56,575 nucleotides of DNA from Methanobacteriota archaeon (GCA_002687355.1 NYZZ01000036.1:1-56575); one strand, 5' to 3'; positions 19,195-56,569 are shown, counted from the first letter of the stretch. The notes: generated by a model from the sequence alone, not told the origin. Numbers and translations: made by a program.

Positions 19195-19262
19195 ACTGGT
19201 TGTAGGCCTTGGATGTGAGCTGGCGCCGCCAGCCCCTTAAGCCCCCTGCAATTTGGGCCGTA

Positions 19263-19675: not shown

Positions 19676-19681
19676 TCCTAG

Positions 19682-40119: not shown

Positions 40120-40203
40120 GCTGACAGGGAAACACTCGCGGGCTTAAGGCTTCAGGCTGGCATCCCGCCGCCAGCCGTAAATCCAGTAACCGCTGCCACC
40201 CCA

Positions 40204-42404: not shown

Positions 42405-42444
42405 CGGTCGCCAATCCCTTTATCACCATCCAGCCTGCGCGAGC

Positions 42445-44960: not shown

Positions 44961-45626
44961 CTATGATTTCTGTATCAGAATCGTAGTTTGCTCCTTCTCG
45001 TACTTGCCGTTGCCGAATAACTCCAATTCCAAATGCTCCTCGAAATCTATTTGGTCACCATAACGGGATTTTAGTTGCTCGTAAAAGTTCCTAGGTACCG
45101 GGTAGGTCTGGTATTTGTATTTCGCATCGTCGTAGAGGTTGGCACCTATCCACAGGTAACCGCCCGATCTCAATATGGGAATTATGCGCCGGATAATCTC
45201 TCTCTGCTTCTCGACAGTAAAGCTGGCAGAAACCCCGTACATAATTACTAGATCAAACTGCTCCGGAGGTGAGTCAGCGAGATATTTCATGATATCCATC
45301 CTGTGAAAGTTACCGAGTCCCATTTTCTTGCGGCACTCTCGGATATTGAGTCTGCTGATATCCACACCATGCGGTACTGCCAGTTCTTTTTCTGCAAGAT
45401 ATGCCAGCATGGTCCCGGAACCGCAACCGAGGTCCAGAACGTTCTTTCCTGACAATTCCAGGGATGTGGTCTCCACCGTCTTGGCCACCATCTTTTCGAG
45501 ATCAGCGTTATCGAGATAACGCCAGATAGCTCCGTTCCCAGTGAACCAGTTCCGAATGATGTAGGAGCGCATCAGAACGTGCAGGTGTAGGAAGTTCTTG
45601 ACGCGTGCGTACATGGGTACTAGCAA
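44961..45626 (-). CDS. Class I SAM-dependent methyltransferase
   Basis: 221 aa with motif I VLDLGCGSGTMLAYL and ..FDLVIMYGV.. Start is TTG at 45626 or ATG at 45614. GC content is visibly lower than in flanking genes. Confidence 0.75.
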   Translation of the reverse strand: MLVPMYARVKNFLHLHVLMRSYIIRNWFTGNGAIWRYLDNADLEKMVAKTVETTSLELSGKNVLDLGCGSGTMLAYLAEKELAVPHGVDISRLNIRECRKKMGLGNFHRMDIMKYLADSPPEQFDLVIMYGVSASFTVEKQREIIRRIIPILRSGGYLWIGANLYDDAKYKYQTYPVPRNFYEQLKSRYGDQIDFEEHLELELFGNGKYEKEQTTILIQKS

Positions 45627-45669
45627 AACGGTATGGCTACCAGTGCTACAGAGTGTATTCGCGTGTAGC

Positions 45670-46395
45670 TCATTCCACGTACCGTCCGTATTCCCCGCGC
45701 TCTAACTTCGCAATTGCTGCCTTCTCGACTTCTGCATCGTAGCGAAAAGTGGGCCACTCGGATTCACCCTGCGGAGAGCGTAACTCGTCGAGCCTACCCT
45801 CCGCGAATGCATCTACGGCCTCAACCATCAGTTTCGCAGCTTCAACGAGGGTTGCATGGCAAATGTCGTGGTAAGTCGCACCGCGCTGCACAGGGATTTC
45901 ACGGCGACCGGCAAGATCACCAGCGTCGATGGCTACCGAACAGAAATGGCAGCTAGCACCAATGGGAATATCGTGGTAGACGGACCACGCCGGTGATGCA
46001 GAACCACGGCACTCCGGCAGCAGCCCAGGATGCGCGTTAAGCACGCCGCCGCGCGCGTCTCCATATTCCAGAATAGCACCGCGGATAATGCGGGTACCAC
46101 CAAAGACTATCAACTCTGGTTTGGCCTCCTCGATAAAGCTCATGCAATGCTCGTCGTTGTGTATAGGGACTGTCACAATCGGGATACCGTGCTCGAGCGC
46201 CTGATCTGCCATCGGCGGGCCAACCGAATGGGAGCCGATACGATACTCAAATTTCTCGCGCTCGACTTCACCTACGTCAGAATCTTCCTCGATAATCAGT
46301 GCCGGCGTAAACCCAGCTTCCAGCAGTCGCGCCAGCATCTCCCTGCCCCAGGGATGTTCGCGGATAGCCATGTAGACATAGCACGGCTGGCTCAC
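45670..46395 (-). CDS. Formyltransferase-family protein (Formyl_trans_N fold)
   Basis: 241 aa. PELIVFGGTRII..GVLNAHPGLLPECRGSASPAW..AIDAGDL carries the Asn-His..Asp catalytic triad context of 10-formyl-THF-dependent formyltransferases. The GTG start overlaps the RidA stop. Confidence 0.75.
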   Translation of the reverse strand: MSQPCYVYMAIREHPWGREMLARLLEAGFTPALIIEEDSDVGEVEREKFEYRIGSHSVGPPMADQALEHGIPIVTVPIHNDEHCMSFIEEAKPELIVFGGTRIIRGAILEYGDARGGVLNAHPGLLPECRGSASPAWSVYHDIPIGASCHFCSVAIDAGDLAGRREIPVQRGATYHDICHATLVEAAKLMVEAVDAFAEGRLDELRSPQGESEWPTFRYDAEVEKAAIAKLERGEYGRYVE

Positions 46396-46796
46396 GCGCG
46401 CGCCACGACCTTGAACTCGACCGCAATTGGGGTCGGTAGCGCGCCCACTTCAACCGTGGTGCGTGCTACACCAAGATCTTCGAAATGGCGAGCCCAAGTA
46501 GCGTTGAAATCTGGAAAGTCGCGTCGCATATTTGTCAGGAACACAGTGACATCGACTACGCGGTCGAGCGAACTGCCAGCCGCCTCCAAAATGGCACGCA
46601 CGTTGGCGATTACCTGCTCGGTTTGTGCAACGACATCATACTCCTGCGGGTTGCCATCAGCATCCTCAGTAGCGCCGCCTGCAATTCCACTGCCATCAGG
46701 TAACCGCGACCCAACGCCAGACAGGAACAGCATGTCGCCTTCCCGACGGCAATGGACGTAGGCGCCGACCGGTTGCGGTGCTGCGTCAGTCTTCAT
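46392..46796 (-). CDS. RidA/YjgF/L-PSP-family deaminase (candidate 2-aminomuconate deaminase)
   Basis: 134 aa with PQPVGAYVHCRREGDMLFLSGVG.. and ..VARTTVEVGALP.. The specific role is inferred from adjacency to the LigB dioxygenase and ALDH genes. Confidence 0.8.
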   Translation of the reverse strand: MKTDAAPQPVGAYVHCRREGDMLFLSGVGSRLPDGSGIAGGATEDADGNPQEYDVVAQTEQVIANVRAILEAAGSSLDRVVDVTVFLTNMRRDFPDFNATWARHFEDLGVARTTVEVGALPTPIAVEFKVVARA

Positions 46797-47805
46797 TGCC
46801 CCCCGGCAGCGAACCCATTGAAGGTGCGTCGTGCAAATCGAGAACCTCGCGGTCGCCGGAGTAGAACTCGGGGTCGTCCTCGTCGTACTCTAAGTCGCCA
46901 GTGCTTTCTCCTGCCGGCTCGAGGCTGACGACCGCACTGCCGGTGCCCCAGATTGGCTCATAGGCGTGAACCGTGCCTGAGTAAAGATTGGCCTGTCCCA
47001 TGAACGCAGCCCACCACCAGAACGGCTTGAACGCGACCACTTTAGGGACACGTGCCTCATCGTGGAACTGGCGCGAAAGCTGTGATAAATCCTCAAGGCG
47101 GCCTTTCTCAAGATATTCTAGGAACTTGCGGTTCCACTCATCATCCTTGAGCGAGTGGATATGGTCGTCCGCTGGCTCCATTGGCTCCGTCACGAGCCGA
47201 TTGGAGAGTGTCGAAACAACGACCGCAGCGACGGTACGCCCCTGCTCCTCGACCGCGTCGCGCAGCGCTTTCCCGAGTACGGTAGTTTCGGTGCGATTGG
47301 CGTAGATATTGCTACTGACGATAGTCGCTGGTAATTCGTTATCGGGATTGAGCAGTTTCAGTGCCACCACCGTACCGGTGTCGATAGGGAAACCATGGTA
47401 GGCAACTGTGCGCGCATGCAGTCCACGAGCCTTGGCCTTCGTGACTGCCAGCTCAGCGAATTTGGCATCGATACGAAACTTATAGGGTATACTGCCAAGA
47501 TAGTGGAAATCATCATCGACGTGCGTCCACTCCGGCGTCGGGTTTGCCTGAAACTGGTGTCCTAAAATTGATGGCCACATCGTCGAATAGACAACGAGAA
47601 GATCGGCGCCACTAGCGGCAATCTGCTCACGTGCTGTTGCGAATCCATCGCGGACGCGCTGCCACCCTTCATTCTTCTCAGGACAGAGCAATGGATGCGG
47701 CAATCCGGGAACCAGTATACCGAGCGTGACAGAGTTGGCAGCTGTTGGTTCGTCAGCGACAGCCTCACCCAACGAAGCCTCTTTGCCAGCAACTGCAGCG
47801 TTCAT
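46786..47805 (-). CDS. LigB-family extradiol dioxygenase, AmnA-like (non-catalytic alpha) subunit with terminal extensions
   Basis: 339 aa with GILVPGLPHPLLCPEKNEGWQRVRDGF..DLLVVYSTMWPS.. It is paralogous to the next ORF but lacks its HPPH / HTPHW histidines. The C-terminal tail is acidic. Confidence 0.7.
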   Translation of the reverse strand: MNAAVAGKEASLGEAVADEPTAANSVTLGILVPGLPHPLLCPEKNEGWQRVRDGFATAREQIAASGADLLVVYSTMWPSILGHQFQANPTPEWTHVDDDFHYLGSIPYKFRIDAKFAELAVTKAKARGLHARTVAYHGFPIDTGTVVALKLLNPDNELPATIVSSNIYANRTETTVLGKALRDAVEEQGRTVAAVVVSTLSNRLVTEPMEPADDHIHSLKDDEWNRKFLEYLEKGRLEDLSQLSRQFHDEARVPKVVAFKPFWWWAAFMGQANLYSGTVHAYEPIWGTGSAVVSLEPAGESTGDLEYDEDDPEFYSGDREVLDLHDAPSMGSLPGGNED

Positions 47806-48689
47806 GCTGAAGCGGGGTCCCAGCCAATGATGGCGTTGCCAGTGCCGATTACCGTCCCGTAAGCATGTATTTCACCCTGGTATTCAGGGAAATCCAGCGC
47901 AGACATCAGCCAAGTCAGGCTGCCTGCATCGGTCTCGGCGACAGTCTGTTCAGTGAAATCGGGCATGATGTCAATCATTTCGCGCGTTTTCCCGGAGCAC
48001 ATCAACTCAATCATCTTCATGTCCCAGAGATACTGGTGGTGGTTAGTGATGTGTTCCTGCGACATGTCCTCAGGCACCTCGGGTTCCTCAGTAAAGTGGC
48101 GATGCGAAAGCGAATTGCTCGAGAGCAGCAGCGCTCGCTTGCCAGATGCTTCGATGGCCTCGCGCGTCGCTTGGCCCAACTTGACCATATTCGCCTGCAT
48201 CACCTCCACTGAGAAGTAGTTGCGTGACCGGTTAGAGGATATGCAGACTATCGGGAGGTCCCAGTCCGGTCGCACCAGATGACAGCTGGTGATGGTGCCA
48301 TAGTCAATGCGGAAATCAGGGTTCTCCATCATCTGCACATGTAGCCCCGTCTTCGCGGCGTGATCGTGGATAGAACGCGACAGCTCGACATCTACAGTGA
48401 GGTCGTAGTTGTAGCGGAAGAGGTTCGGAAAAATTGGATCTACCGAGAGGTTCTTGAAATGTGGAACACCAAGGAAGTGGGTGCCAACGTAGGTCTGCCA
48501 GTGCGGAGTGTGGATGATGATTACATCGAATTCCTTGTCAGCCAGCGACTTACGCAACCGTTCGTATCCCCAGCGTAACTCCTCCCAGCCCCCCTCCGAA
48601 ACCGGCTCGTTTTGCGACGGGTTCTCAGCATAGACCAAGTGCGGCGGGTGCGGCGCTAGCGCGCCCATCACGATTTCACCCTTGGCCAT
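47802..48689 (-). CDS. LigB-family extradiol dioxygenase catalytic subunit, 2-aminophenol 1,6-dioxygenase beta (AmnB)-like
   Basis: 295 aa. GALAPHPPHLVYAENPSQNEPVSEGGWEELRWGYERL..DVIIIHTPHW..VDPIFPNLFRYNYDL..YGTVIGTGNAIIGWD closely parallels my recollection of Pseudomonas AmnB. Confidence 0.8.
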   Translation of the reverse strand: MAKGEIVMGALAPHPPHLVYAENPSQNEPVSEGGWEELRWGYERLRKSLADKEFDVIIIHTPHWQTYVGTHFLGVPHFKNLSVDPIFPNLFRYNYDLTVDVELSRSIHDHAAKTGLHVQMMENPDFRIDYGTITSCHLVRPDWDLPIVCISSNRSRNYFSVEVMQANMVKLGQATREAIEASGKRALLLSSNSLSHRHFTEEPEVPEDMSQEHITNHHQYLWDMKMIELMCSGKTREMIDIMPDFTEQTVAETDAGSLTWLMSALDFPEYQGEIHAYGTVIGTGNAIIGWDPASA

Positions 48690-48793
48690 GGAGTGGCAGG
48701 TCGACCGGATTAATAAATCTCAGCGTCCGACTGTACCTCGTCACTATGCCCTTCGTGTGGTGGCGCATCCAGCAGGCGGAATAGTAGCCCTAA

Positions 48794-50230
48794 TCAGGCT
48801 TCCATCAAGCAAATGTTTGTCGGCTCTGAAAAGAATTCCAGCGAGTAGCGACCGCCCTCGCGACCAACGCCACTGTTCTTTATGCCTCCAAAAGGAACAC
48901 GCAGGTCACGGTGCAACCAGCAATTGACCCAAACCATTCCCGTGTCAATACCCTCAGCGATGCGCCGACCACGCTCCAGGTCGCGTGTCCAGACACTCCC
49001 TGCCAAGCCATATTCGGTGTTGTTGGCTATAGCAAGCGCCTCGTCGTCATTCTCGAATGGATGTAGAGTCACCACTGGGCCAAATATCTCCTCGGTTGCG
49101 GATCGGGAATCAGGTGCTAAACCCTCGATTACAGCTGGCTCCAGGAACGCCCCAGAATCGAATGGGGGCTCCAGTGTCGGACGTTCTCCACCGCATAGGA
49201 CTGTGCCACCCTCCTCCTGCGCAAGGACAACATAACTCTCAACCTTCTTACGATGTTCCTGTGAAACCAAAGCTCCTAGGTCGCACGACGCTGGATCTCC
49301 AATACTCATAGCCTTGACATAAGCGACAAAACGTGGTACGAACTCATCCCAGATTGAGCGTTCGACGAGCAAGCGGCTGCCGCAGAGACAGACTTGCCCT
49401 TGATTCATGAAAGCCGCACGCGCCGCTCCGGGAATCGTCTTTTCAAGGTCAGCATCGCCGCATACGATCGTGGCGTTCTTGCCTCCTAATTCGAGTGAGA
49501 GTTTCTTGAACAACGGTGCGGCACCAGCGGCGACGCTACGTCCTGTCGACGTCCCACCTGTGAACGAAATCGCACCAACTGCAGGATGTTCCACCAATGC
49601 CTGCCCGCACTTAGATCCACTTCCATGAACTATGTTTACAACTCCTGGCGGTAGCCCGGCCTCAGTAACCACTTCAGCGAGCAGGTTGGCAGTCAGTGGC
49701 GTCAGACGCGAAGGCTTGCAAACAACGCAGTTACCCATCAAAATTGCAGGTGCCACCTTCCAAGACAGCAGGTAGAGTGGAAGATTCCAGGGCGTTATCA
49801 ATCCTGCAACGCCAACTGGTTTCCGTACTACCACATTCAGTGCATCTTTCATTTTATACAGCTCATCGGGAAGCTCACGTACCAATTCGGCGAAGAAACG
49901 AAAGTTCAGGGCACTGCGTGCAGCGTCCACTGCGCGCGCCAGAGCGACTGGCTTACCGGTATCTCTAGACTCCAGTTCAGCGATTTCGTCGCTGCGTGCT
50001 TCTAGGGCGCTAGCGATGCTATCAAGCCAAACCGCGCGCTCCTCCACAGGGAGTGCACCCCACTCTGGCTGCGCCATCTGAGCTCCGGCAACAGCCGTCT
50101 TGATATCGGCTGCGGTCGAAGAAGGAATCTCGGCAATTTTCTCGCCGGTGGCGGGGTTATGGTCGTCGAAATATTTTCCATCTTGTGGAGCAGTCCATTT
50201 GCCGGCGATGAGATTAGCAATCCTTCTCAT
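48794..50230 (-). CDS. NAD-dependent 2-amino/2-hydroxymuconate semialdehyde dehydrogenase-like ALDH
   Basis: 478 aa with ELGGKNA, the catalytic Cys in GQVCLCGSR, and ALNFRFFAE, which is typical of the XylG/DmpC/AmnC subgroup. Confidence 0.88.
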   Translation of the reverse strand: MRRIANLIAGKWTAPQDGKYFDDHNPATGEKIAEIPSSTAADIKTAVAGAQMAQPEWGALPVEERAVWLDSIASALEARSDEIAELESRDTGKPVALARAVDAARSALNFRFFAELVRELPDELYKMKDALNVVVRKPVGVAGLITPWNLPLYLLSWKVAPAILMGNCVVCKPSRLTPLTANLLAEVVTEAGLPPGVVNIVHGSGSKCGQALVEHPAVGAISFTGGTSTGRSVAAGAAPLFKKLSLELGGKNATIVCGDADLEKTIPGAARAAFMNQGQVCLCGSRLLVERSIWDEFVPRFVAYVKAMSIGDPASCDLGALVSQEHRKKVESYVVLAQEEGGTVLCGGERPTLEPPFDSGAFLEPAVIEGLAPDSRSATEEIFGPVVTLHPFENDDEALAIANNTEYGLAGSVWTRDLERGRRIAEGIDTGMVWVNCWLHRDLRVPFGGIKNSGVGREGGRYSLEFFSEPTNICLMEA

Positions 50231-51327
50231 CAGTCACCTCGATAGTCGGCGGGGTCGAAGTACCAGCGGTCCTGGTCAGGGTCCCAGTCATCCCAGGTTG
50301 GAATCGCCTCGAGCGCTTTCAGGTAGCGCTCCGGAACGACACCAGGAACCAAAAACGCCTTCTGGCGTCTCAGAGGATAGGGATTGCGCAGCTCTATTCC
50401 CAGCACACCCAGAATACCACGCGCGACGTACCAAGCAGCCTGTGGATTCCAGCCGTGGGCTATCTTGACAACTATTCCGAGACCCTCAGAATAGTCATCA
50501 TGGTCAATAGCCAGCCCAAGAAGTCCGTCGGCACCCTCCTTGGCAATTACGCGACCGTGGCCCGACTTGATGACTGTCGTATCGAGCCGGTTGAAACCGC
50601 CGACCAAGTCGGGGTGGCGCACCATTGCCTCCCATATCCAGTCCTCTTTGCGGTCGCGTACCAGCCCGGAATAGCACATAGCTAACTCGTTGACTGTGTT
50701 TGAGAGCGTCGGCAGTCCATCGCCATCTCGAGCTATGCGCTGTGGCTCCCATTTTGCGCCAAGGTAACGACGCACTTGCTCTAAGAATGCAAAAAAGAAA
50801 GGATGGCTCGGCAACGTGTAACCTGCACGGTTCCATCCCTTAGCACGGCAACCACGCAAAATGGCCGCATGTTGACCTGACGAATTGGAATACCAGCGGC
50901 GAGAACGGCGCACCTGTCGGCCAAACTGTACCAGCGGTGTGTCAAGAGGAGTCTGCATCAGACCCCAGTCGGAACGCGGCAGCAACGACTGTGCTGCGCG
51001 CACGTGCTCGGAAGTGCCGTTGTGGCTCGCGACGGTGATTGCCCTTTGCTCCCACTCCAGCTCCGCCAATTCATCAGTGAATACCTTCAGCATTAGCGGT
51101 TTCATCATCGAGCGACCGTAGCAGAGAACATTACCTCCGAAACTGTGAATGACCTCGTCGCCGTGGGACCAGGCTACCGCACCGTGAATAGTGGTTTCCG
51201 AGACTCCATTGCGCCGATAATCCACAAGCGGTTCCCACTCAACATCACGGCCAGTCGGAACATCACCCTCCAGTTCACCCAGTGGACTCTCTGGGTAGAG
51301 TTGAACCTTGTCAACAGGGTGACTCAC
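50230..51327 (-). CDS. Asparaginase-II-family (Rhizobium etli type) SxxK amidohydrolase homologue
   Basis: 365 aa with ..IHGAVAW.., YGRSMMKPLM (S-x-x-K), ASHNGTSEHV, NSSGQHAA and AKEGADGLLG, which follow the family's motif order. The substrate is unknown. Confidence 0.65.
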   Translation of the reverse strand: MSHPVDKVQLYPESPLGELEGDVPTGRDVEWEPLVDYRRNGVSETTIHGAVAWSHGDEVIHSFGGNVLCYGRSMMKPLMLKVFTDELAELEWEQRAITVASHNGTSEHVRAAQSLLPRSDWGLMQTPLDTPLVQFGRQVRRSRRWYSNSSGQHAAILRGCRAKGWNRAGYTLPSHPFFFAFLEQVRRYLGAKWEPQRIARDGDGLPTLSNTVNELAMCYSGLVRDRKEDWIWEAMVRHPDLVGGFNRLDTTVIKSGHGRVIAKEGADGLLGLAIDHDDYSEGLGIVVKIAHGWNPQAAWYVARGILGVLGIELRNPYPLRRQKAFLVPGVVPERYLKALEAIPTWDDWDPDQDRWYFDPADYRGD

Positions 51328-52562
51328 TGTAACGCCTCCACCTGTGGCACGACCTTGCTCATGAACACTTCCATATTATGCACAACTCGCGGAGAATCGT
51401 GGTTGAAGAAATCGAACCAGGCCATCACGCAATCTTCAGAATCAAACCGTTCCGCCAGCTGACCAGCGACTTCCTCAGCATTACCGATTACCGCATTATC
51501 GGCAGCGTTAGCTACCTTCATTGGATCTATCGTCCCCTCAAGCGCAGCCCAATAACTGCCAAGTGCCTGTTGTGCTTCCTCGCGAGCGGCAGACGAGCGT
51601 TCAGTCGCAGTCAATCCTGGCTCTTCATTCAAGAACACCATCACTGTGCGCGGCATGTAGTGGCGTTGCCATGGTCCACCGTCGGAGTGGTAGCATTCAC
51701 GCATGCGCGTATGCGTGGCCTCAATCACTTCCGGCAGTGTAATTGAAAGGTTGAATGTCTTGACTGGGCGCCACTGATTACATGCTACCTGCAATTCAGG
51801 ATCATGGCTGCCGAGGACTAGATCCAGCAACTCCTGCCGCCATTCCTGCGGGATTGTCTTGATTTCCTCGAACTCATAACGCCGTGGGATGGGGATTGCA
51901 TCTAGTGCTGCAGCAAGTGAATCGCGCTCAACTACTGCATCTTGTACTGCCTTCCAGTCATCATCAGAACGGAAATTATCGCGCGTTAGAACAGTTTCAC
52001 GCACCATCTCACTGCTCAACACCTCGCCATTGAGTAGTCGCAGGAAGATTTCGCACGCCTCGGCAAAAATTTGTCCACGTAGTGCCGGCCACGCCACTTC
52101 TTCCACGGCATCGTGCGGCACAATTCCGTAGGGACGTGCCATGAATTCGAAGCGGCCGGCAGAGAAACCAATGCGTAACCGCCGTTCCTCGGTGGGGTCC
52201 AGCCCGTGCAGCGCCAGGAACGCGCCGGTGCGTTCTGCTACACTGACTGGGCCACCGTGTGTCAGTAAACTCATGACGGCACTGCCGACCTCAATACGCT
52301 GTGTACGGGCGAAACAGAGCTGCGCCAACTGGAAAAAGTCAGTGCAAAGCCCCACTTCGCCTTCCCAGTGCGGCACCACCGGCTGCCGGTTGCGCTTCTG
52401 CACTTCGGTAGAGAGGTGCGCTTGGGCGACCCACGCCGTGCCGAATCCAAGCGCATCGGCAGCCTCCAGCTGCGTAAAGAAATTCTGATACATCTCCGCC
52501 TCGCTCGGTAATTGCCCCGCAACCGGTGTATGGCAGATAGAGAGGAATATGTCGAACAGCAT
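51324..52562 (-). CDS. Luciferase-like (LLM) flavin-dependent monooxygenase/oxidoreductase
   Basis: 412 aa from ATG 52562: MLFDIFLSICH..QLEAADALGFGTAWVAQAHLS.., a TIM-barrel LLM pattern. The upstream part of the track ORF overlaps the SDR gene. Confidence 0.75.
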   Translation of the reverse strand: MLFDIFLSICHTPVAGQLPSEAEMYQNFFTQLEAADALGFGTAWVAQAHLSTEVQKRNRQPVVPHWEGEVGLCTDFFQLAQLCFARTQRIEVGSAVMSLLTHGGPVSVAERTGAFLALHGLDPTEERRLRIGFSAGRFEFMARPYGIVPHDAVEEVAWPALRGQIFAEACEIFLRLLNGEVLSSEMVRETVLTRDNFRSDDDWKAVQDAVVERDSLAAALDAIPIPRRYEFEEIKTIPQEWRQELLDLVLGSHDPELQVACNQWRPVKTFNLSITLPEVIEATHTRMRECYHSDGGPWQRHYMPRTVMVFLNEEPGLTATERSSAAREEAQQALGSYWAALEGTIDPMKVANAADNAVIGNAEEVAGQLAERFDSEDCVMAWFDFFNHDSPRVVHNMEVFMSKVVPQVEALQ

Positions 52563-52564
52563 GC

Positions 52565-53302
52565 TCAGATGGACGACAGCCGCCCACCATCGACTGGGAG
52601 CACGACACCGCGTACGAAGCCCGCCTCCGGCGACGCGAGGAACGCAATCACCGCCCCTAGTTCCGAGGGCTGTGCTAATCGACCTTCCGGGACAGTAGCA
52701 AGCCACGCTTTTTCGACAGCGTCAGGTGTAACTCCGCGCTGCTTTGCCAACGACTGCTTCAGCTCATCCAGCCGCTGTGTCGCAGTATAGCCCGGCAGGA
52801 TGGAGTTGATGGTGACACTGGGCGGTAGTTCTTTGGATAGTGTCTTGGCCCACGCGGCCATCGCACCTCGCACCGTATTGCTGACTCCCAGTCCTGGAAT
52901 CGGCTCCTTGACCGATGTCGAGATTATGTTAATAATACGGCCGTAGCCCGCCTCGCGCATCCCCGGCAGCAGTAGCTTCACTAACGTATGCGACGCGAAG
53001 AGGTGGCGCCGTAGCGCTTTCTCGAAATCGGCTGGCGCTGCTTCAAGCAATGGTCCCGCGGGAGGACCTGCTGAGTTGTTGACCAGCACCTCGAACGCGC
53101 CATTAGCGTCTAGCTCTGCTTTTATAGTGGTCGTCAGTGTTGTAATGTCTTCCAGATCGCACGCCAATGTATTGGTACCAGTGGCGGAACGCGCCAGGAT
53201 TGTGACTGTAGCACCGCGCTCGCGTAGCGCCTCTGCAGATGCTGCACCAATGCCGTGCGTGCCGCCGCAAACCAACGCACGTTTCCCGGAGAGGTTACCC
53301 AT
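52565..53302 (-). CDS. Short-chain dehydrogenase/reductase
   Basis: From ATG 53302 the Rossmann motif is KRALVCGGTHGIGAA, followed by NNSAG. Classical SDR length. It overlaps the TDO 3' end by 8 nt. Confidence 0.85.
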   Translation of the reverse strand: MGNLSGKRALVCGGTHGIGAASAEALRERGATVTILARSATGTNTLACDLEDITTLTTTIKAELDANGAFEVLVNNSAGPPAGPLLEAAPADFEKALRRHLFASHTLVKLLLPGMREAGYGRIINIISTSVKEPIPGLGVSNTVRGAMAAWAKTLSKELPPSVTINSILPGYTATQRLDELKQSLAKQRGVTPDAVEKAWLATVPEGRLAQPSELGAVIAFLASPEAGFVRGVVLPVDGGRLSSI

Positions 53303-54287
53303 TTTCTCCTCCTGCAAAGCCATAGAATTCTGCGTTTTCCAGCTGTGGAAGTGCATTCTTCCGAATCAGAAGTGTGCGCACCGCCCAGAGGTCGCCAAAC
53401 ACACGCCACTGCGTCGTTGAGTCGAGGTAGTCTACTCCGCTCGAGCCGCCAGTCCCGGTACGTCGACCGATAATGCGCTCGACCATACGAGCGTGAGACG
53501 AGCGCCAAAGCACCATCTGCTCCTCCAGTTCAACTAGCGTGTCGACCAGTCGTCGCGGCCATGCCAGCAATGGCAACTCGCGGTAGGACTCAATGAAGAG
53601 CAAACCCGCGCGGGCGCGGTCCACTCCCCCATCGGGCGCGAGGAACTCGCGTGCGCCCTCAGCCTCGGCGGTAAAGCGCGCCTTGATTTCAGGCGTGCCA
53701 CCGTACTCCTCCGCCGTCTCGACGCCGAGCGTGGCGTGAGCTGCGAGGTAGTCATCGATGAAGCGGGTGACTATCGTATCGTCGCCTGCGTCGTCCGGTG
53801 CGGAACCCATAATGGGTGTGCGCGCCAGCCAGTCACTCACGACGGCGACCAACGGTCGTTTTTCGGCTGGACCTGGCAAGTCACGCTGCTCCCCGTCACG
53901 CAGCTGCGGTCCTAACAGCATCTCCATTTCGCGCATCTGGAATGACTGGAAGCCGGAGGCGGTACCGAGCTTGTCGCGGAAGTTCAGAAACTCCTGTGGC
54001 GTAAGTGTCTCCATTACCTTCCACTGCTGCGCCATCAGTCGGAAGGTTTCGATAACCCGGCGCAGGTGGTGCACCGCACGCGGGATGCGCTCTTCGGCAA
54101 CGTAGTCGCGGTCTAGGATGTCACGCGCCGCGCGCAGCTCCGAAATCACCAGCTTGAACCACAATTCAAAATTCTGATGGACCAGAATAAAATGAAGCTC
54201 ATCGGACGATGGTTTACCGTCTGTACCTTCCTGTAGCGCTAGCAATTCATCCAGCTGCAGGTACTCGGAGTAGCTCGGGGGCATCAT
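53295..54287 (-). CDS. kynA: Tryptophan 2,3-dioxygenase
   Basis: 330 aa. YSEYLQLDELLALQ..DELHFILVHQNFELWFKL carries the distal His motif. LWRSSHARMVERIIGRRTGTGGSSGVDYL carries the proximal His and the GTGGSSG motif. Confidence 0.88.
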   Translation of the reverse strand: MMPPSYSEYLQLDELLALQEGTDGKPSSDELHFILVHQNFELWFKLVISELRAARDILDRDYVAEERIPRAVHHLRRVIETFRLMAQQWKVMETLTPQEFLNFRDKLGTASGFQSFQMREMEMLLGPQLRDGEQRDLPGPAEKRPLVAVVSDWLARTPIMGSAPDDAGDDTIVTRFIDDYLAAHATLGVETAEEYGGTPEIKARFTAEAEGAREFLAPDGGVDRARAGLLFIESYRELPLLAWPRRLVDTLVELEEQMVLWRSSHARMVERIIGRRTGTGGSSGVDYLDSTTQWRVFGDLWAVRTLLIRKNALPQLENAEFYGFAGGENG

Positions 54288-54307: not shown

Positions 54308-56569
54308 TTAGTCGCTTCGGCGTCTTTTCAGCGCGATTATGGACATAGCGACCAAAGTAATGAGTAAGGATGTCGCAGGCAGTCTGGTATCGTCGTCTGT
54401 ATCGTATGTCTGCTCAGTGGTATCGTTAGCGGGAGGATTGCTAGTCTCGTCGACGGGAGGGTCGCCAGTGTTGTTAACGGGAGAGTCACCTGTCCCATTC
54501 CCACTAGCCGCTTGATATTCGACAACGATTACTTGCTGGTCTGCGAGAAGGGTCAAGTCCCAGCTATCGTATGCCACACCATCCACTTTCATAGTCAATG
54601 TGTGGTTGGCATCAGCAACCATATGCATGACTTGTTCTGCCGAGAAAGGCTGTCCCCAGATGTTGAAGAATGTACCTAAGTAAACTGGAGTCGACTCAGG
54701 TGTTTCGATGTGCAGTTTCCCACTAGCGTCGTGCGTGTGGATGGCATGCATGCCATTCGGGCAGGCATCGGTATCGATACCTGTGTTAGCCGGTATCGTT
54801 AGTGAGGTACCGTTGTCGAGAATTACCAGCATGATGTGGATGTGTTGTGCAAGGCCAGAATGATCGTCGAGGCAAACCTCCTCAAGTGGAGTTGACACTG
54901 TACCGCCGTTCTGGGTAAAGGTACAGCCATTACGATACACAGGTTCCCCGTAAGGTGATTCTGCGCACTCATCATCCGGGTCGACGATGCCATCACCATC
55001 AGCGTCGGGCGGCGCAGGCGGGTTGTTACCGCTGTAGGCGTCCAGAACCGGTTCCTGACCAGCAGCGTCGTACTGTGCCTGCGTACAACCACGCGGGAAT
55101 ATCGGCTCCCCGTCAGGCCACACCGTAGTGGGCGTGTCGGCACAGTTGTCCCAGCCGTTGCTGACACCGTCTTCATCGTCATCGGGCAGGCCACCGCCGG
55201 GTGGTTCACCTCCACCGCCGTTGTTGGTATTCGAGAGGTCTGGTACACCGCGATAACAGTAGATGAAATACGGGAATGCGTTGTTGGTGGAGATGGTACC
55301 GTCACCATCTGCGACGGGAGGTGTCGAGTAGTAGTGGTATATTCCATCCGGAAATTCGGGAGTCGCACCGAAACGGCCATTGCACGCATCAAGATCTCCA
55401 GAGCCTGCCTCGAAATGGTAATCCTGAATACCATTCTCACCCGCGGCTCCGTCATTCAGAAGGTAGGCCGAGCGAATCAGCTTCACACTACCATCACCTT
55501 CCCACCCGTAAGAGCCGTAAATTGGGTAGCCATCGAACGAGAAACCTATAATCGGTGAATGCTCGGTTTCATCTACTTGGCTGAAGTCATAATCAGTCCA
55601 GACGATATCATCATCCTCTTCGACAACGGATACCGACCCCTCCATTCCTCCGTGAAAATTGCAGCCATAATCATACGTTCCAGTCTCTGTGAATGTATAT
55701 GACCAAGTCGCTCCCTCTCCTATAGTTCCAGAGTGAAAATAATCGTCTTCCGCTGTTACGGTGTGGGAGCTGTCATCATCGTTAGTCCAGGTTACAGTGT
55801 CACCGACGTTGATTGTCAGGTCCTCAGGCAGGAAATCCTTGTCATCTGTTATTGTTACTTGATGGGTTTCTCCCTCATTTCCAGGGTGCCAGTGGACACA
55901 ATTGGAATCGAAATGATAGTGGTAGGTGCCACCGGGCCCGGAGTGGCCGCCGCAGACGCCGAGCCAGATATTCTGTTCCGTCTCCTCGTACTGTCCAATC
56001 TGTGTCGCCACAGCATCACCCCCGGGACCGTCCTCCGGCCCGTAGATGGGAGCGCCATTCAGTGCCACTGCAACAGGACCCAGTTCAGGCGCCAGCTCGC
56101 AGCCGTCCGCCGATGCTACAGGATTGCAGTCGGTGTCGTTGGTGGGTGAGAGAGGGAACCGCCACTCGTAATCCTGGGGTTCGACGCCATTCGTGCCTTG
56201 CCCTCCCGGGCCGGAATAGTGGTCGTGGTGCGGGACGCCACTCGTAGCGACAACCAGCTCGTCAGCGGTGAACGCCAGTTCGACTTCGCACTCGAGCGCC
56301 TTGGAATAATTCAGGTCCTGCACTGTCACCGCTTCCTGGCAGAGCCAGAGCGATCGTAGAAGCGCTTCCAAATCGTCGCCTTCCGGATTGTCGGCAGCCA
56401 CCGGGACTATTGCAAGAGGTGATAGTACCATCAAAAGAGCAATCGCAACGGCTATTGGACGCGTCAGGGTAGTGAGGCTGGGGCGCAGAAGGATAGTGCC
56501 AAAGAGTGCACAGAGCGAAATGTTGAAGGATGTGAACCACAGCAACAGGTCTATCTCGATGCCTTGCAT
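54308..56569 (-). CDS. Secreted multidomain protein: YHYH modules, cupredoxin insert, Ca-binding TSP3-like repeats and C-terminal membrane anchor
   Basis: 753 aa with a signal peptide. The YHYH-type motifs are GVCGGHSGPGGTYHYHF and DACNGRFGATPEFPDGIYHYY. The type-1 Cu ligand pattern is SSHTV..YGCNFHGGMEG. Asp-rich repeats are DDDEDGVSNGWDNC and DADGDGIVDPDDEC. A His-rich domain (HIHIML..MHAIHTHDASGKLHIE) is followed by the tail LPATSLLITLVAMSIIALKRRRSD. Confidence 0.7.
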   Translation of the reverse strand: MQGIEIDLLLWFTSFNISLCALFGTILLRPSLTTLTRPIAVAIALLMVLSPLAIVPVAADNPEGDDLEALLRSLWLCQEAVTVQDLNYSKALECEVELAFTADELVVATSGVPHHDHYSGPGGQGTNGVEPQDYEWRFPLSPTNDTDCNPVASADGCELAPELGPVAVALNGAPIYGPEDGPGGDAVATQIGQYEETEQNIWLGVCGGHSGPGGTYHYHFDSNCVHWHPGNEGETHQVTITDDKDFLPEDLTINVGDTVTWTNDDDSSHTVTAEDDYFHSGTIGEGATWSYTFTETGTYDYGCNFHGGMEGSVSVVEEDDDIVWTDYDFSQVDETEHSPIIGFSFDGYPIYGSYGWEGDGSVKLIRSAYLLNDGAAGENGIQDYHFEAGSGDLDACNGRFGATPEFPDGIYHYYSTPPVADGDGTISTNNAFPYFIYCYRGVPDLSNTNNGGGGEPPGGGLPDDDEDGVSNGWDNCADTPTTVWPDGEPIFPRGCTQAQYDAAGQEPVLDAYSGNNPPAPPDADGDGIVDPDDECAESPYGEPVYRNGCTFTQNGGTVSTPLEEVCLDDHSGLAQHIHIMLVILDNGTSLTIPANTGIDTDACPNGMHAIHTHDASGKLHIETPESTPVYLGTFFNIWGQPFSAEQVMHMVADANHTLTMKVDGVAYDSWDLTLLADQQVIVVEYQAASGNGTGDSPVNNTGDPPVDETSNPPANDTTEQTYDTDDDTRLPATSLLITLVAMSIIALKRRRSD

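What the first reader, a model, noticed from the sequence alone, without database searches (positions are those of the whole stretch)
44961..54287. Ten overlapped genes link tryptophan 2,3-dioxygenase to an Amn-like 2-aminophenol ring-cleavage module: candidate non-canonical kynurenine-type pathway in an archaeon
Seen in sequence, all on the minus strand. TDO (54287-53295) overlaps an SDR by 8 nt. The SDR and a luciferase-like monooxygenase are 2 nt apart. The LLM and the asparaginase-II-like gene overlap (GTGA). The asparaginase-like gene and the ALDH share 1 nt (TGATG). After a 104-nt gap, LigB-beta and LigB-alpha overlap (ATGA), LigB-alpha and RidA overlap by 11 nt, and RidA and the formyltransferase overlap (GTGA). 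A methyltransferase follows after 43 nt. Established knowledge: TDO opens the kynurenine pathway. AmnB/AmnA (LigB family), AmnC (semialdehyde dehydrogenase) and AmnD (YjgF/RidA-type 2-aminomuconate deaminase) form the upper 2-aminophenol meta-cleavage pathway. The described bacterial Trp-to-2-aminomuconate clusters use a cupin 3-hydroxyanthranilate dioxygenase instead. Inference: recognisable kynurenine formamidase, kynurenine 3-monooxygenase, kynureninase and ACMS decarboxylase are absent from the operon. An SxxK amidohydrolase, a flavin LLM enzyme, an SDR, a formyltransferase and a methyltransferase occupy the operon instead. It may therefore encode a rewired route, for example the amidase acting as formamidase, the LLM as ring hydroxylase, and the LigB enzyme cleaving 3-hydroxykynurenine or 3-hydroxyanthranilate (both o-aminophenols). 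Alternatively it could make a Trp-derived small molecule. I know of no described archaeal pathway with this composition.
Basis: partly seen in the sequence, partly recalled or inferred. Interest (0 to 1): 0.8.

Follow-up and report, generated by a model that had tools for sequence, protein, structure and literature searches.

The report
Alternative tryptophan breakdown operon via aminophenol
A marine planktonic archaeon carries a nine-gene operon, shared with many uncultured bacteria, that probably breaks down tryptophan by a route not found described in the searched literature. It appears to join the first kynurenine-pathway steps to a 2-aminophenol ring-opening module through three unstudied enzymes.

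Summary
Nine of the ten genes form a conserved unit: TDO, an atypical SDR, a divergent luciferase-like monooxygenase (LLM), an asparaginase-II-like serine hydrolase (ASN), an AMSDH-type ALDH, AmnB, AmnA, an AmnE-like RidA and a formyltransferase-like protein (FT). The methyltransferase occurs in 0 of 163 related loci and is not part of it.

The same set recurs in MGIII archaea and in bacterial MAGs (named ones: Myxococcota, Alphaproteobacteria, Planctomycetota). In bacteria a KynB-type arylformamidase sits just after RidA, where FT sits in archaea. The two never co-occur. FT therefore probably handles the N-formyl group. ASN is not the formamidase, because bacterial clusters carry both ASN and KynB.

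AmnB, AmnA, ALDH and RidA each have their best solved-structure match to the 2-aminophenol pathway enzymes, with catalytic and substrate residues intact. No KMO, kynureninase, HAAO or ACMSD was found in the window. NadA is present, so the operon is catabolic rather than NAD-forming.

My inferred mechanism is: the LLM performs a Baeyer-Villiger/Dakin-type oxygenation of kynurenine, ASN releases aspartate and 2-aminophenol, and the Amn-type enzymes open the ring. Ring cleavage of 3-hydroxykynurenine remains a rival. I found no published description. I rate it a new variant of a known kind, interest 0.72.

The parts
53295..54287 (-). Tryptophan 2,3-dioxygenase (330 aa, long eukaryote-like form). 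Proposed step 1: Trp to N-formylkynurenine.
   Evidence: Pfam PF03301, E 1.9e-59. Best solved-structure matches are insect and human TDO, E 4e-43. The distal His, the Arg of the FRxxLxxASGFQS motif, the proximal His and the GTGGSSG motif are all aligned and conserved.
52565..53302 (-). Atypical SDR (245 aa), always immediately upstream of the LLM. Role unknown. Candidates are a flavin reductase partner for the LLM or a 2-oxohex-3-enedioate reductase.
   Evidence: Pfam adh_short_C2, E 9e-33. The canonical YxxxK motif is replaced by an invariant SNT(V/I/L)R in 133 cluster SDRs. The closest structures are uncharacterised structural-genomics SDRs with an SNGAR sequence at the aligned position.
51324..52562 (-). 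Divergent luciferase-like monooxygenase (412 aa). Proposed oxygenase acting on kynurenine (Baeyer-Villiger/Dakin type).
   Evidence: Weak, partial Pfam PF00296 match, E 5e-10. No solved-structure sequence match better than E 0.01. Only 305 of 1.84 billion representative proteins match at E <= 1e-3. A low-confidence AF2 model (pLDDT 63) hits luciferase and LLM folds, including a type II BVMO.
50230..51327 (-). Asparaginase-II (class 3)-like serine amidohydrolase (365 aa). Proposed to release L-aspartate and 2-aminophenol from the oxygenated kynurenine.
   Evidence: Pfam PF06089, E 7e-44. Solved-structure matches are ReAIV/ReAV, E 1.7e-13. Both Ser-Lys tandems are invariant in 129 sequences. The Zn ligands Cys/Lys/Cys are Ser/Gln/Asp here and Cys/Glu/Cys in most relatives.
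48794..50230 (-). 2-aminomuconate-6-semialdehyde dehydrogenase-type ALDH (478 aa).
   Evidence: The top seven solved-structure matches are all AMSDH (4u3w, E 1e-139). The equivalents of R120, R464, N169, E268 and C302 are invariant in 109 cluster ALDHs.
48690..48793 (-). 104-nt spacer with a TATA-like TTTATTAA motif about 26-33 nt upstream of the AmnB ATG. Possible internal promoter, and a recurrent break or insertion point of the cluster.
   Evidence: Sequence read. At this junction other MGIII loci carry an alpha/beta hydrolase and bacterial loci carry a UvrD-like helicase on the opposite strand. MGIIb clusters end here. The promoter function is inference only.
47802..48689 (-). AmnB: catalytic beta subunit of a 2-aminophenol 1,6-dioxygenase-type LigB enzyme (295 aa).
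   Evidence: Solved-structure matches 8ihg_A (E 1.3e-112) and 3vsg_B (E 1.4e-111). 55% identity over 292 ungapped positions. H14, H63, E252 and H196 are identical at the aligned positions.
46786..47805 (-). AmnA: non-catalytic alpha subunit (339 aa).
   Evidence: Solved-structure match 3vsg_A, E 6.5e-46. It is 27% identical to the beta subunit, with the metal and catalytic positions replaced: H14 to G, H63 to M, E252 to K, H196 to N.
46392..46796 (-). RidA-family 2-aminomuconate deaminase-like protein (134 aa).
   Evidence: The best solved-structure match is the 2-aminomuconate deaminase 6izh, E 1e-24, above generic RidA proteins. It is fused to AmnA (L005, L007, L089) or to the KynB-type cyclase (L170) in bacteria.
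45670..46395 (-). Formyl_trans_N protein (241 aa). Proposed N-formylkynurenine deformylase or formyl-to-folate transferase.
   Evidence: Pfam PF00551. The N-x-H...D triad and the HPGLLP motif are aligned with GAR transformylase and Fmt. It follows RidA in 18 loci, where the KynB-type arylformamidase follows RidA in 7 bacterial loci. FT occurs in 95 loci, CYC in 10, both together in 0.
44961..45626 (-). SAM methyltransferase (221 aa). Adjacent but not supported as a member of the unit.
   Evidence: Generic methyltransferase Pfam matches only. No homologue in any of 163 related loci. Close relatives L003/L004 carry a weak-match DUF3054 gene in this position.

Best explanation
This is a nine-gene catabolic operon for L-tryptophan. 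It bypasses the canonical middle of the kynurenine pathway.

Supported by sequence evidence:
- TDO converts Trp to N-formylkynurenine.
- The end of the pathway is an Amn-type meta-cleavage. AmnBA opens an o-aminophenol ring. The AMSDH-type ALDH oxidises the muconic semialdehyde. The AmnE-like RidA deaminates 2-aminomuconate to 2-oxohex-3-enedioate.

Inferred from gene displacement:
- The formyltransferase-like protein removes the formyl group. It does so either by hydrolysis or by passing it to tetrahydrofolate. This replaces the KynB arylformamidase of the bacterial versions.

Inferred from chemistry and family mechanism:
- The divergent LLM uses a flavin peroxide to carry out a Baeyer-Villiger (Dakin-type) oxygenation of the o-aminoaryl ketone of kynurenine.
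- The product is the beta-(2-aminophenyl) ester of aspartate. This ester can rearrange to N4-(2-hydroxyphenyl)-asparagine.
- The asparaginase-like serine hydrolase splits it into L-aspartate and 2-aminophenol, the substrate of AmnBA.
- The atypical SDR is either the flavin reductase of the LLM or the reductase that converts 2-oxohex-3-enedioate to 2-oxoadipate.

This scheme gives every conserved gene a role. It also explains why KMO, kynureninase, HAAO and ACMSD are not needed.
For: Conservation:
- The nine-gene order recurs in MGIII archaea, and the same families cluster in bacterial contigs and MAGs.
- L130 carries TDO-SDR-LLM-ASN-ALDH-AmnB-AmnA-RidA-KynB on one strand.

Entry steps:
- TDO keeps its heme and Trp-binding residues.
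- Bacterial clusters use either the long or the short TDO form. One of the short forms passes the TDO equivalog cut-off. Their cyclase genes match arylformamidase TIGR03035 at 179-199 bits, below the 223-bit cut-off on 5'-truncated fragments.
- FT and the cyclase are mutually exclusive and occupy the same position after RidA.
- A RidA::cyclase fusion exists in L170.

Exit steps:
- AmnB matches solved AmnB at E 1e-112, 55% identity without gaps, with the metal ligands kept.
- AmnA lacks those ligands, as aligned to AmnB.
- The ALDH matches AMSDH at E 1e-139, and both carboxylate-binding arginines are invariant in 109 sequences.
- The RidA's best match is 2-aminomuconate deaminase.

Middle steps:
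- ASN keeps both catalytic Ser-Lys tandems. Most family members keep the two Cys of the metal site. In ReAV that site anchors the alpha-amino and alpha-carboxy groups of L-Asn (PMC12951835). This fits a beta-aspartyl substrate.
- ASN co-occurs with KynB, so it is not the formamidase.
- The LLM fold family includes luciferase and type II BVMOs.

Catabolic role:
- NadA lies in the same window, and no canonical mid-pathway genes are present.

Established knowledge (mine, not tested here):
- o- and p-amino aryl ketones undergo Dakin oxidation.
- The hap pathway of Pseudomonas fluorescens ACB uses the same logic: a BVMO, an esterase, a two-subunit dioxygenase, a semialdehyde dehydrogenase and a reductase.
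Against: - No biochemical data exist for the LLM, ASN, SDR or FT of this family.
- The LLM model is of low confidence (pLDDT 63), so its substrate and chemistry are not constrained by structure.
- The window's own ASN has lost the Cys/Lys/Cys metal site, which reads Ser/Gln/Asp. The L-Asn-like anchoring is therefore not shown for this protein.
- In MGIIb archaea and in a Planctomycetota contig, the module ending in LLM-ASN-ALDH occurs without AmnBA within 10 kb. In split arrangements the ALDH always stays with the LLM rather than with AmnBA. This is unexpected if the ALDH acts directly after AmnBA, unless the dioxygenase genes lie elsewhere. I could not check that.
- No recognisable flavin reductase is present unless the SDR fills that role.
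- No formyl transfer or hydrolysis from an aryl formamide by a Formyl_trans_N enzyme is known to me.
- No downstream genes for 2-oxohex-3-enedioate are present in the cluster.
Confidence: 0.45

Rival explanations
1. The operon and its end steps are the same, but the LLM is a kynurenine 3-hydroxylase that replaces KMO. AmnBA then cleaves 3-hydroxykynurenine directly. The asparaginase-like serine hydrolase removes the beta-aspartyl acyl group from the ring-opened product by C-C hydrolysis. This yields aspartate and 2-aminomuconate semialdehyde for the ALDH.
For: - It uses the same gene set and the same conserved residues.
- 3-hydroxykynurenine is an o-aminophenol (established chemistry).
- The recurrent AmnB-AmnA-ASN trio in bacteria fits a hydrolase acting immediately after ring cleavage.
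- Serine hydrolases that cleave C-C bonds of meta-cleavage products are known (BphD type, my knowledge).
Against: - Aromatic hydroxylation is unusual for LLM-type (group C) flavoenzymes (my knowledge).
- AmnB is 55% identical, without any gap, to enzymes that act on small aminophenols, whereas 3-hydroxykynurenine is much bulkier.
- C-C hydrolysis is unprecedented for the asparaginase-II fold, to my knowledge.
- The ring-opened product would tend to cyclise to a pyridine.
Confidence: 0.15
2. SDR-LLM-ASN-ALDH (with FT) is a self-contained module for the oxidative opening of some other substrate. That substrate could be an N-heterocycle or a ketone. The analogues would be the pyridine pathway (PyrA LLM, PyrB SDR, PyrC amidohydrolase, PyrD ALDH) or the Rut pathway (RutA LLM, RutB amidohydrolase, RutC RidA). 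On this view its association with TDO and AmnBA is secondary or reflects a merged operon.
For: - MGIIb archaea carry only FT-SDR-LLM-ASN-ALDH: 39 loci with at least 8 kb of flank on each side lack TDO, AmnBA and RidA.
- Several bacterial loci are SDR-LLM-ALDH only.
- The family composition parallels the Pyr and Rut pathways (my knowledge).
- The SDR is always directly upstream of the LLM.
Against: - The ALDH of every module type keeps the two arginines that bind the distal carboxylate of muconic semialdehydes, and it is closest to AMSDH.
- TDO directly precedes SDR-LLM in archaeal loci, in bacterial-type loci such as L130 and in a Planctomycetota contig.
- KynB-type arylformamidase and TDO of two different forms have been recruited to the cluster.
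- A RidA::KynB-type fusion lies next to SDR-LLM-ALDH.
Confidence: 0.15
3. The cluster is biosynthetic rather than catabolic. It would make NAD via quinolinate, picolinate, or another tryptophan-derived small molecule.
For: - 2-aminomuconate semialdehyde cyclises spontaneously to picolinate (established).
- No lower-pathway genes for 2-oxohex-3-enedioate are present in the cluster.
- A methyltransferase lies next to the cluster in the window.
Against: - NadA (quinolinate synthase) is in the same window, so NAD comes from aspartate.
- The dedicated AMSDH-type ALDH and the 2-aminomuconate deaminase-like RidA pull flux away from picolinate.
- The methyltransferase is not conserved.
- No NRPS, PKS, ligase or export genes accompany the cluster in any locus examined.
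Confidence: 0.05

Closest known systems
2-aminophenol meta-cleavage pathway (amn, nba and cnb clusters of Pseudomonas sp. AP-3, P. pseudoalcaligenes JS45, Comamonas CNB-1, Burkholderia xenovorans LB400)
   Same: - A two-subunit LigB-type dioxygenase with a catalytic beta and an inactive alpha subunit (AmnB E 1e-112, AmnA E 6.5e-46).
- An AMSDH-type ALDH (E 1e-139).
- A RidA-type 2-aminomuconate deaminase (E 1e-24).
- Source.
   Different: - There are no lower-pathway genes (4-oxalocrotonate decarboxylase, hydratase, aldolase, acetaldehyde dehydrogenase).
- The source of the aminophenol is encoded in the operon (TDO, a formyl-handling enzyme, LLM, ASN) rather than being nitrobenzene or xenobiotic chemistry.
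- The hosts are marine archaea and uncultured bacteria, and the neighbouring genes are housekeeping ones.
Bacterial kynurenine pathway to 2-aminomuconate (Burkholderia cenocepacia J2315 and Cupriavidus type; TDO, KynB, KMO, KynU, HAAO, ACMSD, AMSDH, AMD)
   Same: - The entry enzyme TDO (plus KynB in the bacterial versions of this cluster).
- The exit enzymes AMSDH and the RidA-type 2-aminomuconate deaminase.
   Different: - KMO, kynureninase, the cupin HAAO and ACMSD are all absent.
- They are replaced by an LLM, a class-3 asparaginase-like hydrolase, an atypical SDR and a LigB-type dioxygenase.
- In archaea KynB is replaced by a Formyl_trans_N protein.
4-hydroxyacetophenone (hap) pathway of Pseudomonas fluorescens ACB (recalled from memory, not tested here)
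   Same: The proposed logic is the same: an aryl ketone is oxygenated by a Baeyer-Villiger monooxygenase. The resulting aryl ester is hydrolysed. A two-subunit Fe(II) dioxygenase opens the resulting phenol. A semialdehyde dehydrogenase and a reductase follow.
   Different: - The enzyme families differ: a type I FAD BVMO versus an LLM, an esterase versus the asparaginase-II fold, and hydroquinone dioxygenase versus the AmnBA type.
- The substrate is an amino acid.
- The released acid would be aspartate.
Class 3 L-asparaginases ReAIV and ReAV of Rhizobium etli
   Same: The fold family (PF06089) and both catalytic Ser-Lys tandems.
   Different: - The similarity is only distant (E 1.7e-13).
- The Cys-Lys-Cys zinc site is Ser-Gln-Asp in the window and Cys-Glu-Cys in most cluster relatives.
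- The protein is embedded in an aromatic catabolic operon, so free asparagine is unlikely to be its substrate.
LLM-based ring- or bond-cleaving pathways: Rut (RutA/B/C) and the pyridine pathway PyrA-D of Arthrobacter sp. 68b (recalled from memory)
   Same: An LLM is combined with an amidohydrolase, a RidA or SDR, and an ALDH.
   Different: - There is no detectable orthology. The LLM here is an isolated clade.
- The amidohydrolase belongs to a different fold.
- The cluster is tied to TDO, KynB and AmnBA.

Membership tests
Amn-type 2-aminophenol 1,6-dioxygenase (AmnBA/CnbC) | The beta subunit carries the 2-His-1-carboxylate Fe(II) ligands and the catalytic His. | tested here: met
   H14, H63, E252 and H196 are identical to the aligned positions of solved AmnB 8ihg_A. 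The match is 55% identical over 292 ungapped positions. The assignment of these residues as ligands rests on my memory of the CnbC structure paper.
Amn-type 2-aminophenol 1,6-dioxygenase (AmnBA/CnbC) | A paralogous alpha subunit lacking the metal ligands, encoded next to the beta subunit. | tested here: met
   AmnA matches 3vsg_A at E 6.5e-46. The ligand positions are G, M, K and N. The two genes overlap by 4 nt.
Amn-type 2-aminophenol 1,6-dioxygenase (AmnBA/CnbC) | Activity on 2-aminophenol, as opposed to 3-hydroxykynurenine or 3-hydroxyanthranilate. | not testable with these tools
   This requires an enzyme assay. Sequence similarity alone cannot fix the substrate.
Complete amn catabolic operon (amnBACDEFGH) | Lower-pathway genes: 4-oxalocrotonate decarboxylase, 2-oxopent-4-enoate hydratase, aldolase and acetaldehyde dehydrogenase. 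| tested here: not met
   No such gene was found among the window ORFs examined or in the flanks of the related loci examined.
2-aminomuconate-6-semialdehyde dehydrogenase (AmnC/NbaE) | The catalytic Cys, Glu and Asn, plus the two arginines that bind the substrate carboxylate (R120 and R464 of the P. fluorescens enzyme). | tested here: met
   All five positions are invariant in the window protein and in 108 cluster homologues. The NCBIfam 2-hydroxymuconic semialdehyde dehydrogenase model scores 556 bits, below its 693-bit cut-off.
Canonical kynurenine pathway | Tryptophan 2,3-dioxygenase with heme and Trp-binding residues. | tested here: met
   PF03301, E 2e-59. The distal His, the Arg, the proximal His and GTGGSSG are conserved. 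The bacterial-type equivalog TIGR03036 scores below its cut-off, because this is the long eukaryote-like form.
Canonical kynurenine pathway | Kynurenine formamidase (KynB cyclase type or alpha/beta-hydrolase type). | tested here: not met
   None is present in the window. Bacterial versions of the cluster carry a KynB-type gene (TIGR03035, 179-199 bits). Some MGIII versions have an alpha/beta hydrolase of unknown role.
Canonical kynurenine pathway | KMO, kynureninase, cupin 3-hydroxyanthranilate dioxygenase and ACMSD. | tested here: not met
   There is no matching Pfam family among the window ORFs of at least 150 aa. The only Aminotran_5 protein sits directly after the SufBCD-type genes and is most likely SufS, by adjacency. 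The rest of the genome could not be searched.
Class 3 L-asparaginase (ReAV type) | Two Ser-Lys catalytic tandems. | tested here: met
   The S73/K76 and S101/K263 equivalents are invariant in 129 sequences.
Class 3 L-asparaginase (ReAV type) | The Cys-Lys-Cys zinc site that anchors the alpha-amino and alpha-carboxy groups of L-Asn. | tested here: not met
   The site reads Ser/Gln/Asp in the window and in MGIII, and Cys/Glu/Cys in MGIIb and most bacterial members. The role of the site comes from PMC12951835.
Luciferase-like (group C) flavin monooxygenase | The TIM-barrel LLM fold. | tested here: met
   PF00296, E 5e-10 over residues 9-182. Foldseek's top matches are luciferase and LLM monooxygenases, probability 1.0, but the model's pLDDT is only 63.
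Luciferase-like (group C) flavin monooxygenase | Cofactor (FMN versus F420) and a partner flavin reductase. | not tested
   No recognisable flavin reductase is in the cluster. The atypical SDR is a candidate by adjacency only.
Folate-dependent formyltransferase/hydrolase (Formyl_trans_N) | The Asn-His-Asp catalytic triad and the HxSLLP-type folate loop. | tested here: met
   LNAHPGLLP and IDAGD align to the corresponding motifs of GAR transformylase and Fmt. All equivalog models score far below their cut-offs.
Classical SDR | The catalytic Ser-Tyr-Lys with a YxxxK motif. | tested here: not met
   YxxxK is replaced by an invariant SNTxR in 133 sequences.

The most novel reading that the evidence does not exclude
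Kynurenine has a previously unrecognised enzymatic fate. A flavin-dependent Baeyer-Villiger/Dakin oxygenation by a new LLM clade is followed by an asparaginase-like hydrolase. Together they split kynurenine into L-aspartate and 2-aminophenol. This would make tryptophan a natural source of 2-aminophenol for the widespread Amn-type pathways. In archaea the formyl group of N-formylkynurenine would additionally be handed to tetrahydrofolate by a formyltransferase instead of being hydrolysed, which would salvage a C1 unit.
Probability: 0.35. Interest if true: 0.85.

Novelty: new variant of a known kind. Interest (0 to 1): 0.72.

Why it matters
- Marine Group II/III archaea are among the most abundant heterotrophs in the ocean, and none has been cultured. 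A defined route for aromatic amino-acid catabolism would add to what is known of how they use protein-derived organic matter.
- Across archaea and the bacterial phyla named among the MAGs (Myxococcota, Alphaproteobacteria, Planctomycetota), the cluster would be a new way to degrade tryptophan without KMO, kynureninase, HAAO or ACMSD.
- It assigns candidate functions to four unstudied enzyme clades: the LLM, the class-3 asparaginase-like hydrolase, the SNTxR SDR and the small formyltransferase.
- It offers a testable answer to an open question. The natural precursor of 2-aminophenol for Amn-type pathways is stated to be unknown in the ARO microcompartment study (PMC10470539).

Tried and rejected
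- **Riboflavin link.** The AmnB-AmnA-ASN trio lies next to ribE/ribBA/ribH in Acanthopleuribacter and near ribF in another contig. I considered a flavin-related role. I dropped it because most loci have no such neighbours and the flanks are generic housekeeping genes.
- **LLM structure.** The AF2 model of the LLM was poor (pLDDT 63), even with bacterial sequences in the alignment. The fold search confirmed only the LLM fold.
- **MGIIb genomes.** The AmnB homologue list shows no tier between about 81% (other MGIII) and about 73% identity. All six of the ~70-73% homologues whose contigs I inspected had bacterial contexts. This weakly suggests that MGIIb lack AmnB.
- **Literature.** Searches linking kynurenine to Baeyer-Villiger chemistry, LLMs, 2-aminophenol or MGII archaea found nothing relevant.
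- **AmnAB substrate range.** The Lendenmann and Spain paper on AmnAB substrate range was not held. The statement that classical AmnAB does not use 3-hydroxyanthranilate therefore rests on memory and is not used as evidence.
- **ASN as a deaminase.** I considered ASN as a 2-aminomuconate or semialdehyde deaminase, by analogy with the amidase-type CnbZ. I kept this only as a minor possibility, because most full clusters carry both ASN and RidA.
- **A 1501-aa fusion.** One representative protein (P0245) combines LLM, GATase and ApbE domains. I judged it a probable gene-call fusion and did not use it.

Full report
**1. Observation**

These are the 8-nt overlap, 2-nt gap, 4-nt overlap, 1-nt overlap, 104-nt spacer, 4-nt, 11-nt and 4-nt overlaps, and the 43-nt gap. 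Pfam and NCBIfam confirm the families: TDO, an SDR, a luciferase-like monooxygenase (LLM), an Asparaginase_II-like protein (ASN), an aldehyde dehydrogenase, two LigB-family proteins, a RidA, a Formyl_trans_N protein (FT) and a SAM methyltransferase. Independent gene calls on related contigs give matching or near-matching lengths, which supports the chosen start codons for SDR (245 aa) and LLM (412 aa). Source names attached to near-identical proteins place the window in Candidatus Poseidoniia, the Marine Group II/III archaea.

**2. Conservation and the true extent of the unit**

I scanned species-representative genomes and JGI metagenomes with LLM alignments. I then mapped the ten window proteins, plus a bacterial TDO and a cyclase, onto all fetched loci by tblastn. 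Of 163 loci with an LLM homologue, none has the methyltransferase. Three arrangements recur.

- **MGIII and the window's lineage.** The order is TDO-SDR-LLM-ASN-ALDH-AmnB-AmnA-RidA-FT. Some loci have an alpha/beta hydrolase inserted between ALDH and AmnB.
- **MGIIb (Thalassarchaeaceae).** Only FT-SDR-LLM-ASN-ALDH is present. This holds for 39 loci with at least 8 kb of flank on each side and no TDO, AmnBA or RidA. In L086 the neighbours are an Asp/Asn-tRNA synthetase and a FabH-like gene. Homologues of both neighbours recur in most of the other type-2 loci.
- **Bacterial contigs.** The same families occur. L130 is the clearest case: TDO-SDR-LLM-ASN-ALDH-AmnB-AmnA-RidA-cyclase on one strand.

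Named bacterial hosts are all MAGs of Myxococcota, Alphaproteobacteria, Planctomycetota and 'Deltaproteobacteria'. Split versions also exist:

- SDR-LLM-ALDH beside a RidA::cyclase fusion (L170).
- TDO-SDR-LLM followed at a distance by ASN-ALDH (L171).
- AmnB-AmnA-ASN trios.
- AmnB with an AmnA::RidA fusion.

The conserved unit in the window therefore has nine genes. The 104-nt spacer between ALDH and AmnB coincides with the recurrent break and insertion point. It carries a TATA-like TTTATTAA about 30 nt upstream of the AmnB start. A function as an internal promoter is inference only.

**3. The two ends of the pathway are well supported**

*Entry.*
- The TDO aligns to insect and human TDO (E 4e-43). 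The distal His, the Arg of the FRxxLxxASGFQS motif, the proximal His and GTGGSSG are all conserved.
- Bacterial clusters have recruited either this long form or the short bacterial form. The short form of L130 passes the NCBIfam TDO equivalog cut-off.
- Their cyclase genes match arylformamidase TIGR03035 (KynB) at 179-199 bits, measured on fragments missing about 14 N-terminal residues.

*Exit.*
- AmnB matches solved 2-aminophenol 1,6-dioxygenase beta subunits at E 1e-112. It is 55% identical over 292 ungapped positions, and H14, H63, E252 and H196 are retained.
- Homoprotocatechuate and DOPA dioxygenases match far more weakly (E 2e-12 and 5e-3). Protocatechuate and gallate dioxygenases do not appear.
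- AmnA matches the alpha subunits at E 6.5e-46 and has lost all four of those positions.
- The top seven solved-structure matches of the ALDH are 2-aminomuconate-6-semialdehyde dehydrogenases (E 1e-139 to 1e-133). The next functional class, betaine aldehyde dehydrogenases, matches at 1e-105.
- The two arginines that hold the substrate carboxylate and the catalytic Cys, Glu and Asn are invariant in 109 cluster ALDHs of every arrangement, including MGIIb.
- The best solved-structure match of the RidA is the 2-aminomuconate deaminase AmnE (E 1e-24).

*Catabolic role.* NadA lies in the same window at 25443-26540. No KMO, kynureninase, HAAO or ACMSD family was found among the window ORFs. The operon is therefore catabolic and not a route to NAD.

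**4. The formyl step**

- FT is found in 95 loci and the KynB-type cyclase in 10. The two never occur together.
- The gene immediately after RidA is FT in 18 loci and the cyclase in 7.
- This looks like a non-orthologous displacement at a fixed position.
- FT keeps the Asn-His-Asp triad and the folate-loop motif of formyltransferases.
- I infer that FT takes the formyl group off N-formylkynurenine, or off a later formanilide. It may do so hydrolytically or by transfer to tetrahydrofolate. No activity of this kind is known to me for this family, so this step is inferred.
ASN in the bacterial loci is 66-75% identical to the window's protein, and the complete bacterial clusters also encode a KynB-type arylformamidase.

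**5. The middle of the pathway**

Kynurenine has to be turned into an o-aminophenol using only the SDR, the LLM and ASN.

*The LLM.*
- It is the only oxygenase available.
- It forms an isolated clade. Only 305 of 1.84 billion representative proteins match at E <= 1e-3.
- No solved-structure sequence match is better than E 0.01.
- The AF2 model is weak (pLDDT 63). It does recover the luciferase/LLM fold, a family that includes the type II Baeyer-Villiger monooxygenases.

*ASN.*
- It keeps both Ser-Lys tandems of class 3 asparaginases in all 129 sequences.
- The zinc site is Cys/Glu/Cys in most members and Ser/Gln/Asp in the window's clade.
- In ReAV that site anchors the alpha-amino and alpha-carboxy groups of L-Asn (PMC12951835).

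*Preferred model.*
- The LLM peroxyflavin attacks the aryl ketone of kynurenine.
- The electron-rich 2-aminophenyl group migrates (Dakin/Baeyer-Villiger chemistry, established knowledge).
- The product is the beta-aspartyl 2-aminophenyl ester, which can rearrange to N4-(2-hydroxyphenyl)-asparagine.
- ASN then releases L-aspartate and 2-aminophenol.

This model supplies the exact substrate of classical AmnBA. It removes the need for kynureninase and ACMSD. It gives an asparaginase-family enzyme a beta-aspartyl substrate. It also mirrors the hap pathway for 4-hydroxyacetophenone, which I recall from memory.

*The SDR.*
- It lacks the YxxxK motif. An invariant SNTxR takes its place.
- Its nearest structures are uncharacterised structural-genomics SDRs.
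- Because it always directly precedes the LLM, it may be the flavin reductase.
- Alternatively it may reduce 2-oxohex-3-enedioate to 2-oxoadipate. The first compound is the product of 2-aminomuconate deaminase (bioRxiv 10.64898/2026.06.05.730449).

**6. Weaknesses and rivals**

- *3-hydroxykynurenine route.* LLM as hydroxylase, AmnBA cleaving 3-hydroxykynurenine and ASN removing the aspartyl group by C-C hydrolysis uses the same genes. I cannot exclude it computationally.
- *AmnBA-less arrangements.* The MGIIb and Planctomycetota loci lack AmnBA nearby. The ALDH always stays with the LLM when the cluster is split. Both points are awkward for a strictly linear pathway. They leave room for SDR-LLM-ASN-ALDH being a module with its own substrate, by analogy with the Pyr and Rut pathways.
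- *Against the independent-module rival.* The ALDH keeps AMSDH-type substrate residues in every arrangement. TDO directly abuts SDR-LLM in the archaeal loci, in bacterial-type loci such as L130, and in the Planctomycetota contig. A RidA::KynB-type fusion lies beside SDR-LLM-ALDH.
- *Unresolved.* I could not determine whether MGIIb genomes encode TDO and AmnBA elsewhere.
- *Biosynthetic reading.* This is unlikely, given NadA, the dedicated ALDH and deaminase, and the absence of any tailoring or export genes.

**7. Comparison with what is known, and novelty**

- The exit module meets the membership tests for AmnB, AmnA, AmnC and the RidA-type deaminase. The cluster is not a complete amn operon, because the lower pathway is missing. 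It is not the canonical kynurenine pathway either, because four defining enzymes are missing.
- ASN fails the zinc-site test for class 3 asparaginases.
- The SDR fails the classical-SDR test.
- The LLM and FT match no equivalog model.
- Full-text searches found no paper connecting kynurenine with an LLM, a Baeyer-Villiger step or 2-aminophenol. None connects MGII/III archaea with kynurenine metabolism.
- The ARO microcompartment study states that the natural precursor of 2-aminophenol for Amn-type pathways is unknown (PMC10470539). This cluster offers tryptophan as a candidate.
- I rate it a new variant of a known kind, an aerobic tryptophan and aromatic meta-cleavage operon. About 0.85 of my confidence lies in 'tryptophan-to-aminophenol meta-cleavage catabolic operon'. 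About 0.45 lies in the specific Baeyer-Villiger mechanism.

Noticed in passing
window 39559-44148: This looks like a gene set for the archaeal-type mevalonate pathway. It comprises a UbiX-like flavoprotein (39559-40119, minus strand), a GHMP kinase (39730-41133), a UbiD-family decarboxylase (41130-42404) and a fused AcnX large-plus-swivel protein (42445-44148). The pathway assignment is from my memory of the anhydromevalonate route. Only the Pfam families were tested.
   Followed up: partly
window 25443-26540 (minus strand): A NadA quinolinate synthase is present. The archaeon therefore probably makes NAD from aspartate and does not need tryptophan for quinolinate.
   Followed up: partly
L029-L087 and L131-L167 (for example L086:8433-13952): MGIIb (Thalassarchaeaceae) genomes carry a conserved five-gene version, FT-SDR-LLM-ASN-ALDH, without TDO, AmnBA or RidA within 10 kb. 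It lies between an Asp/Asn-tRNA synthetase and a FabH-like gene. Whether the missing genes lie elsewhere is unknown.
   Followed up: partly
L170:13268-14338; L005:10990-12948; L007:10906-12294; L089:10945-12459: Several gene fusions occur: RidA fused to a KynB-type cyclase in an Alphaproteobacteria MAG, and AmnA fused to RidA in several bacterial contigs. They link the first and last steps of the proposed pathway physically.
   Followed up: partly
L001:7261-15566; L088:5852-10970: In Acanthopleuribacter pedis the AmnB-AmnA-ASN trio sits among the riboflavin genes (ribE, ribBA, ribH). In another contig it lies near ribF. This may be coincidence or a flavin connection; it is unexplained.
   Followed up: partly
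L021:13783-14751 (also L019, L023, L025, L027): A subset of MGIII clusters has an alpha/beta-hydrolase gene (PRK10985-like) inserted between ALDH and AmnB. It sits at the position of the window's 104-nt spacer. Its role is unknown.
   Followed up: partly
window 52565-53302 and 132 homologues: The cluster SDR belongs to an atypical group in which the catalytic YxxxK is replaced by an invariant SNT(V/I/L)R. The nearest solved structures are unannotated structural-genomics entries with SNGAR at the aligned position.
   Followed up: yes
window 54308-56569 (minus strand): A 753-aa protein with YHYH and cupredoxin/plastocyanin-like domains ends only 20 nt upstream of the TDO start codon. It is syntenic in the closest relatives only (L003, L004, L009). 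Co-transcription with TDO is possible.
   Followed up: partly
window 44183-44929 (plus strand): An acyl-CoA-binding protein is fused to a SnoaL-like domain. It is convergent with the methyltransferase at the end of the cluster.
   Followed up: no
window 16001-20000: GC content drops to 0.48-0.49, against 0.55-0.61 elsewhere. The region contains a type IB topoisomerase (16498-17625), an MscS-like channel and a methyltransferase. It may be an acquired segment.
   Followed up: no
protein P0245: A 1501-aa representative protein has an N-terminal half of this LLM clade followed by GATase-like and ApbE (flavin transferase) domains. It is probably a gene-call fusion, but it could be a real flavin-related fusion.
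   Followed up: partly
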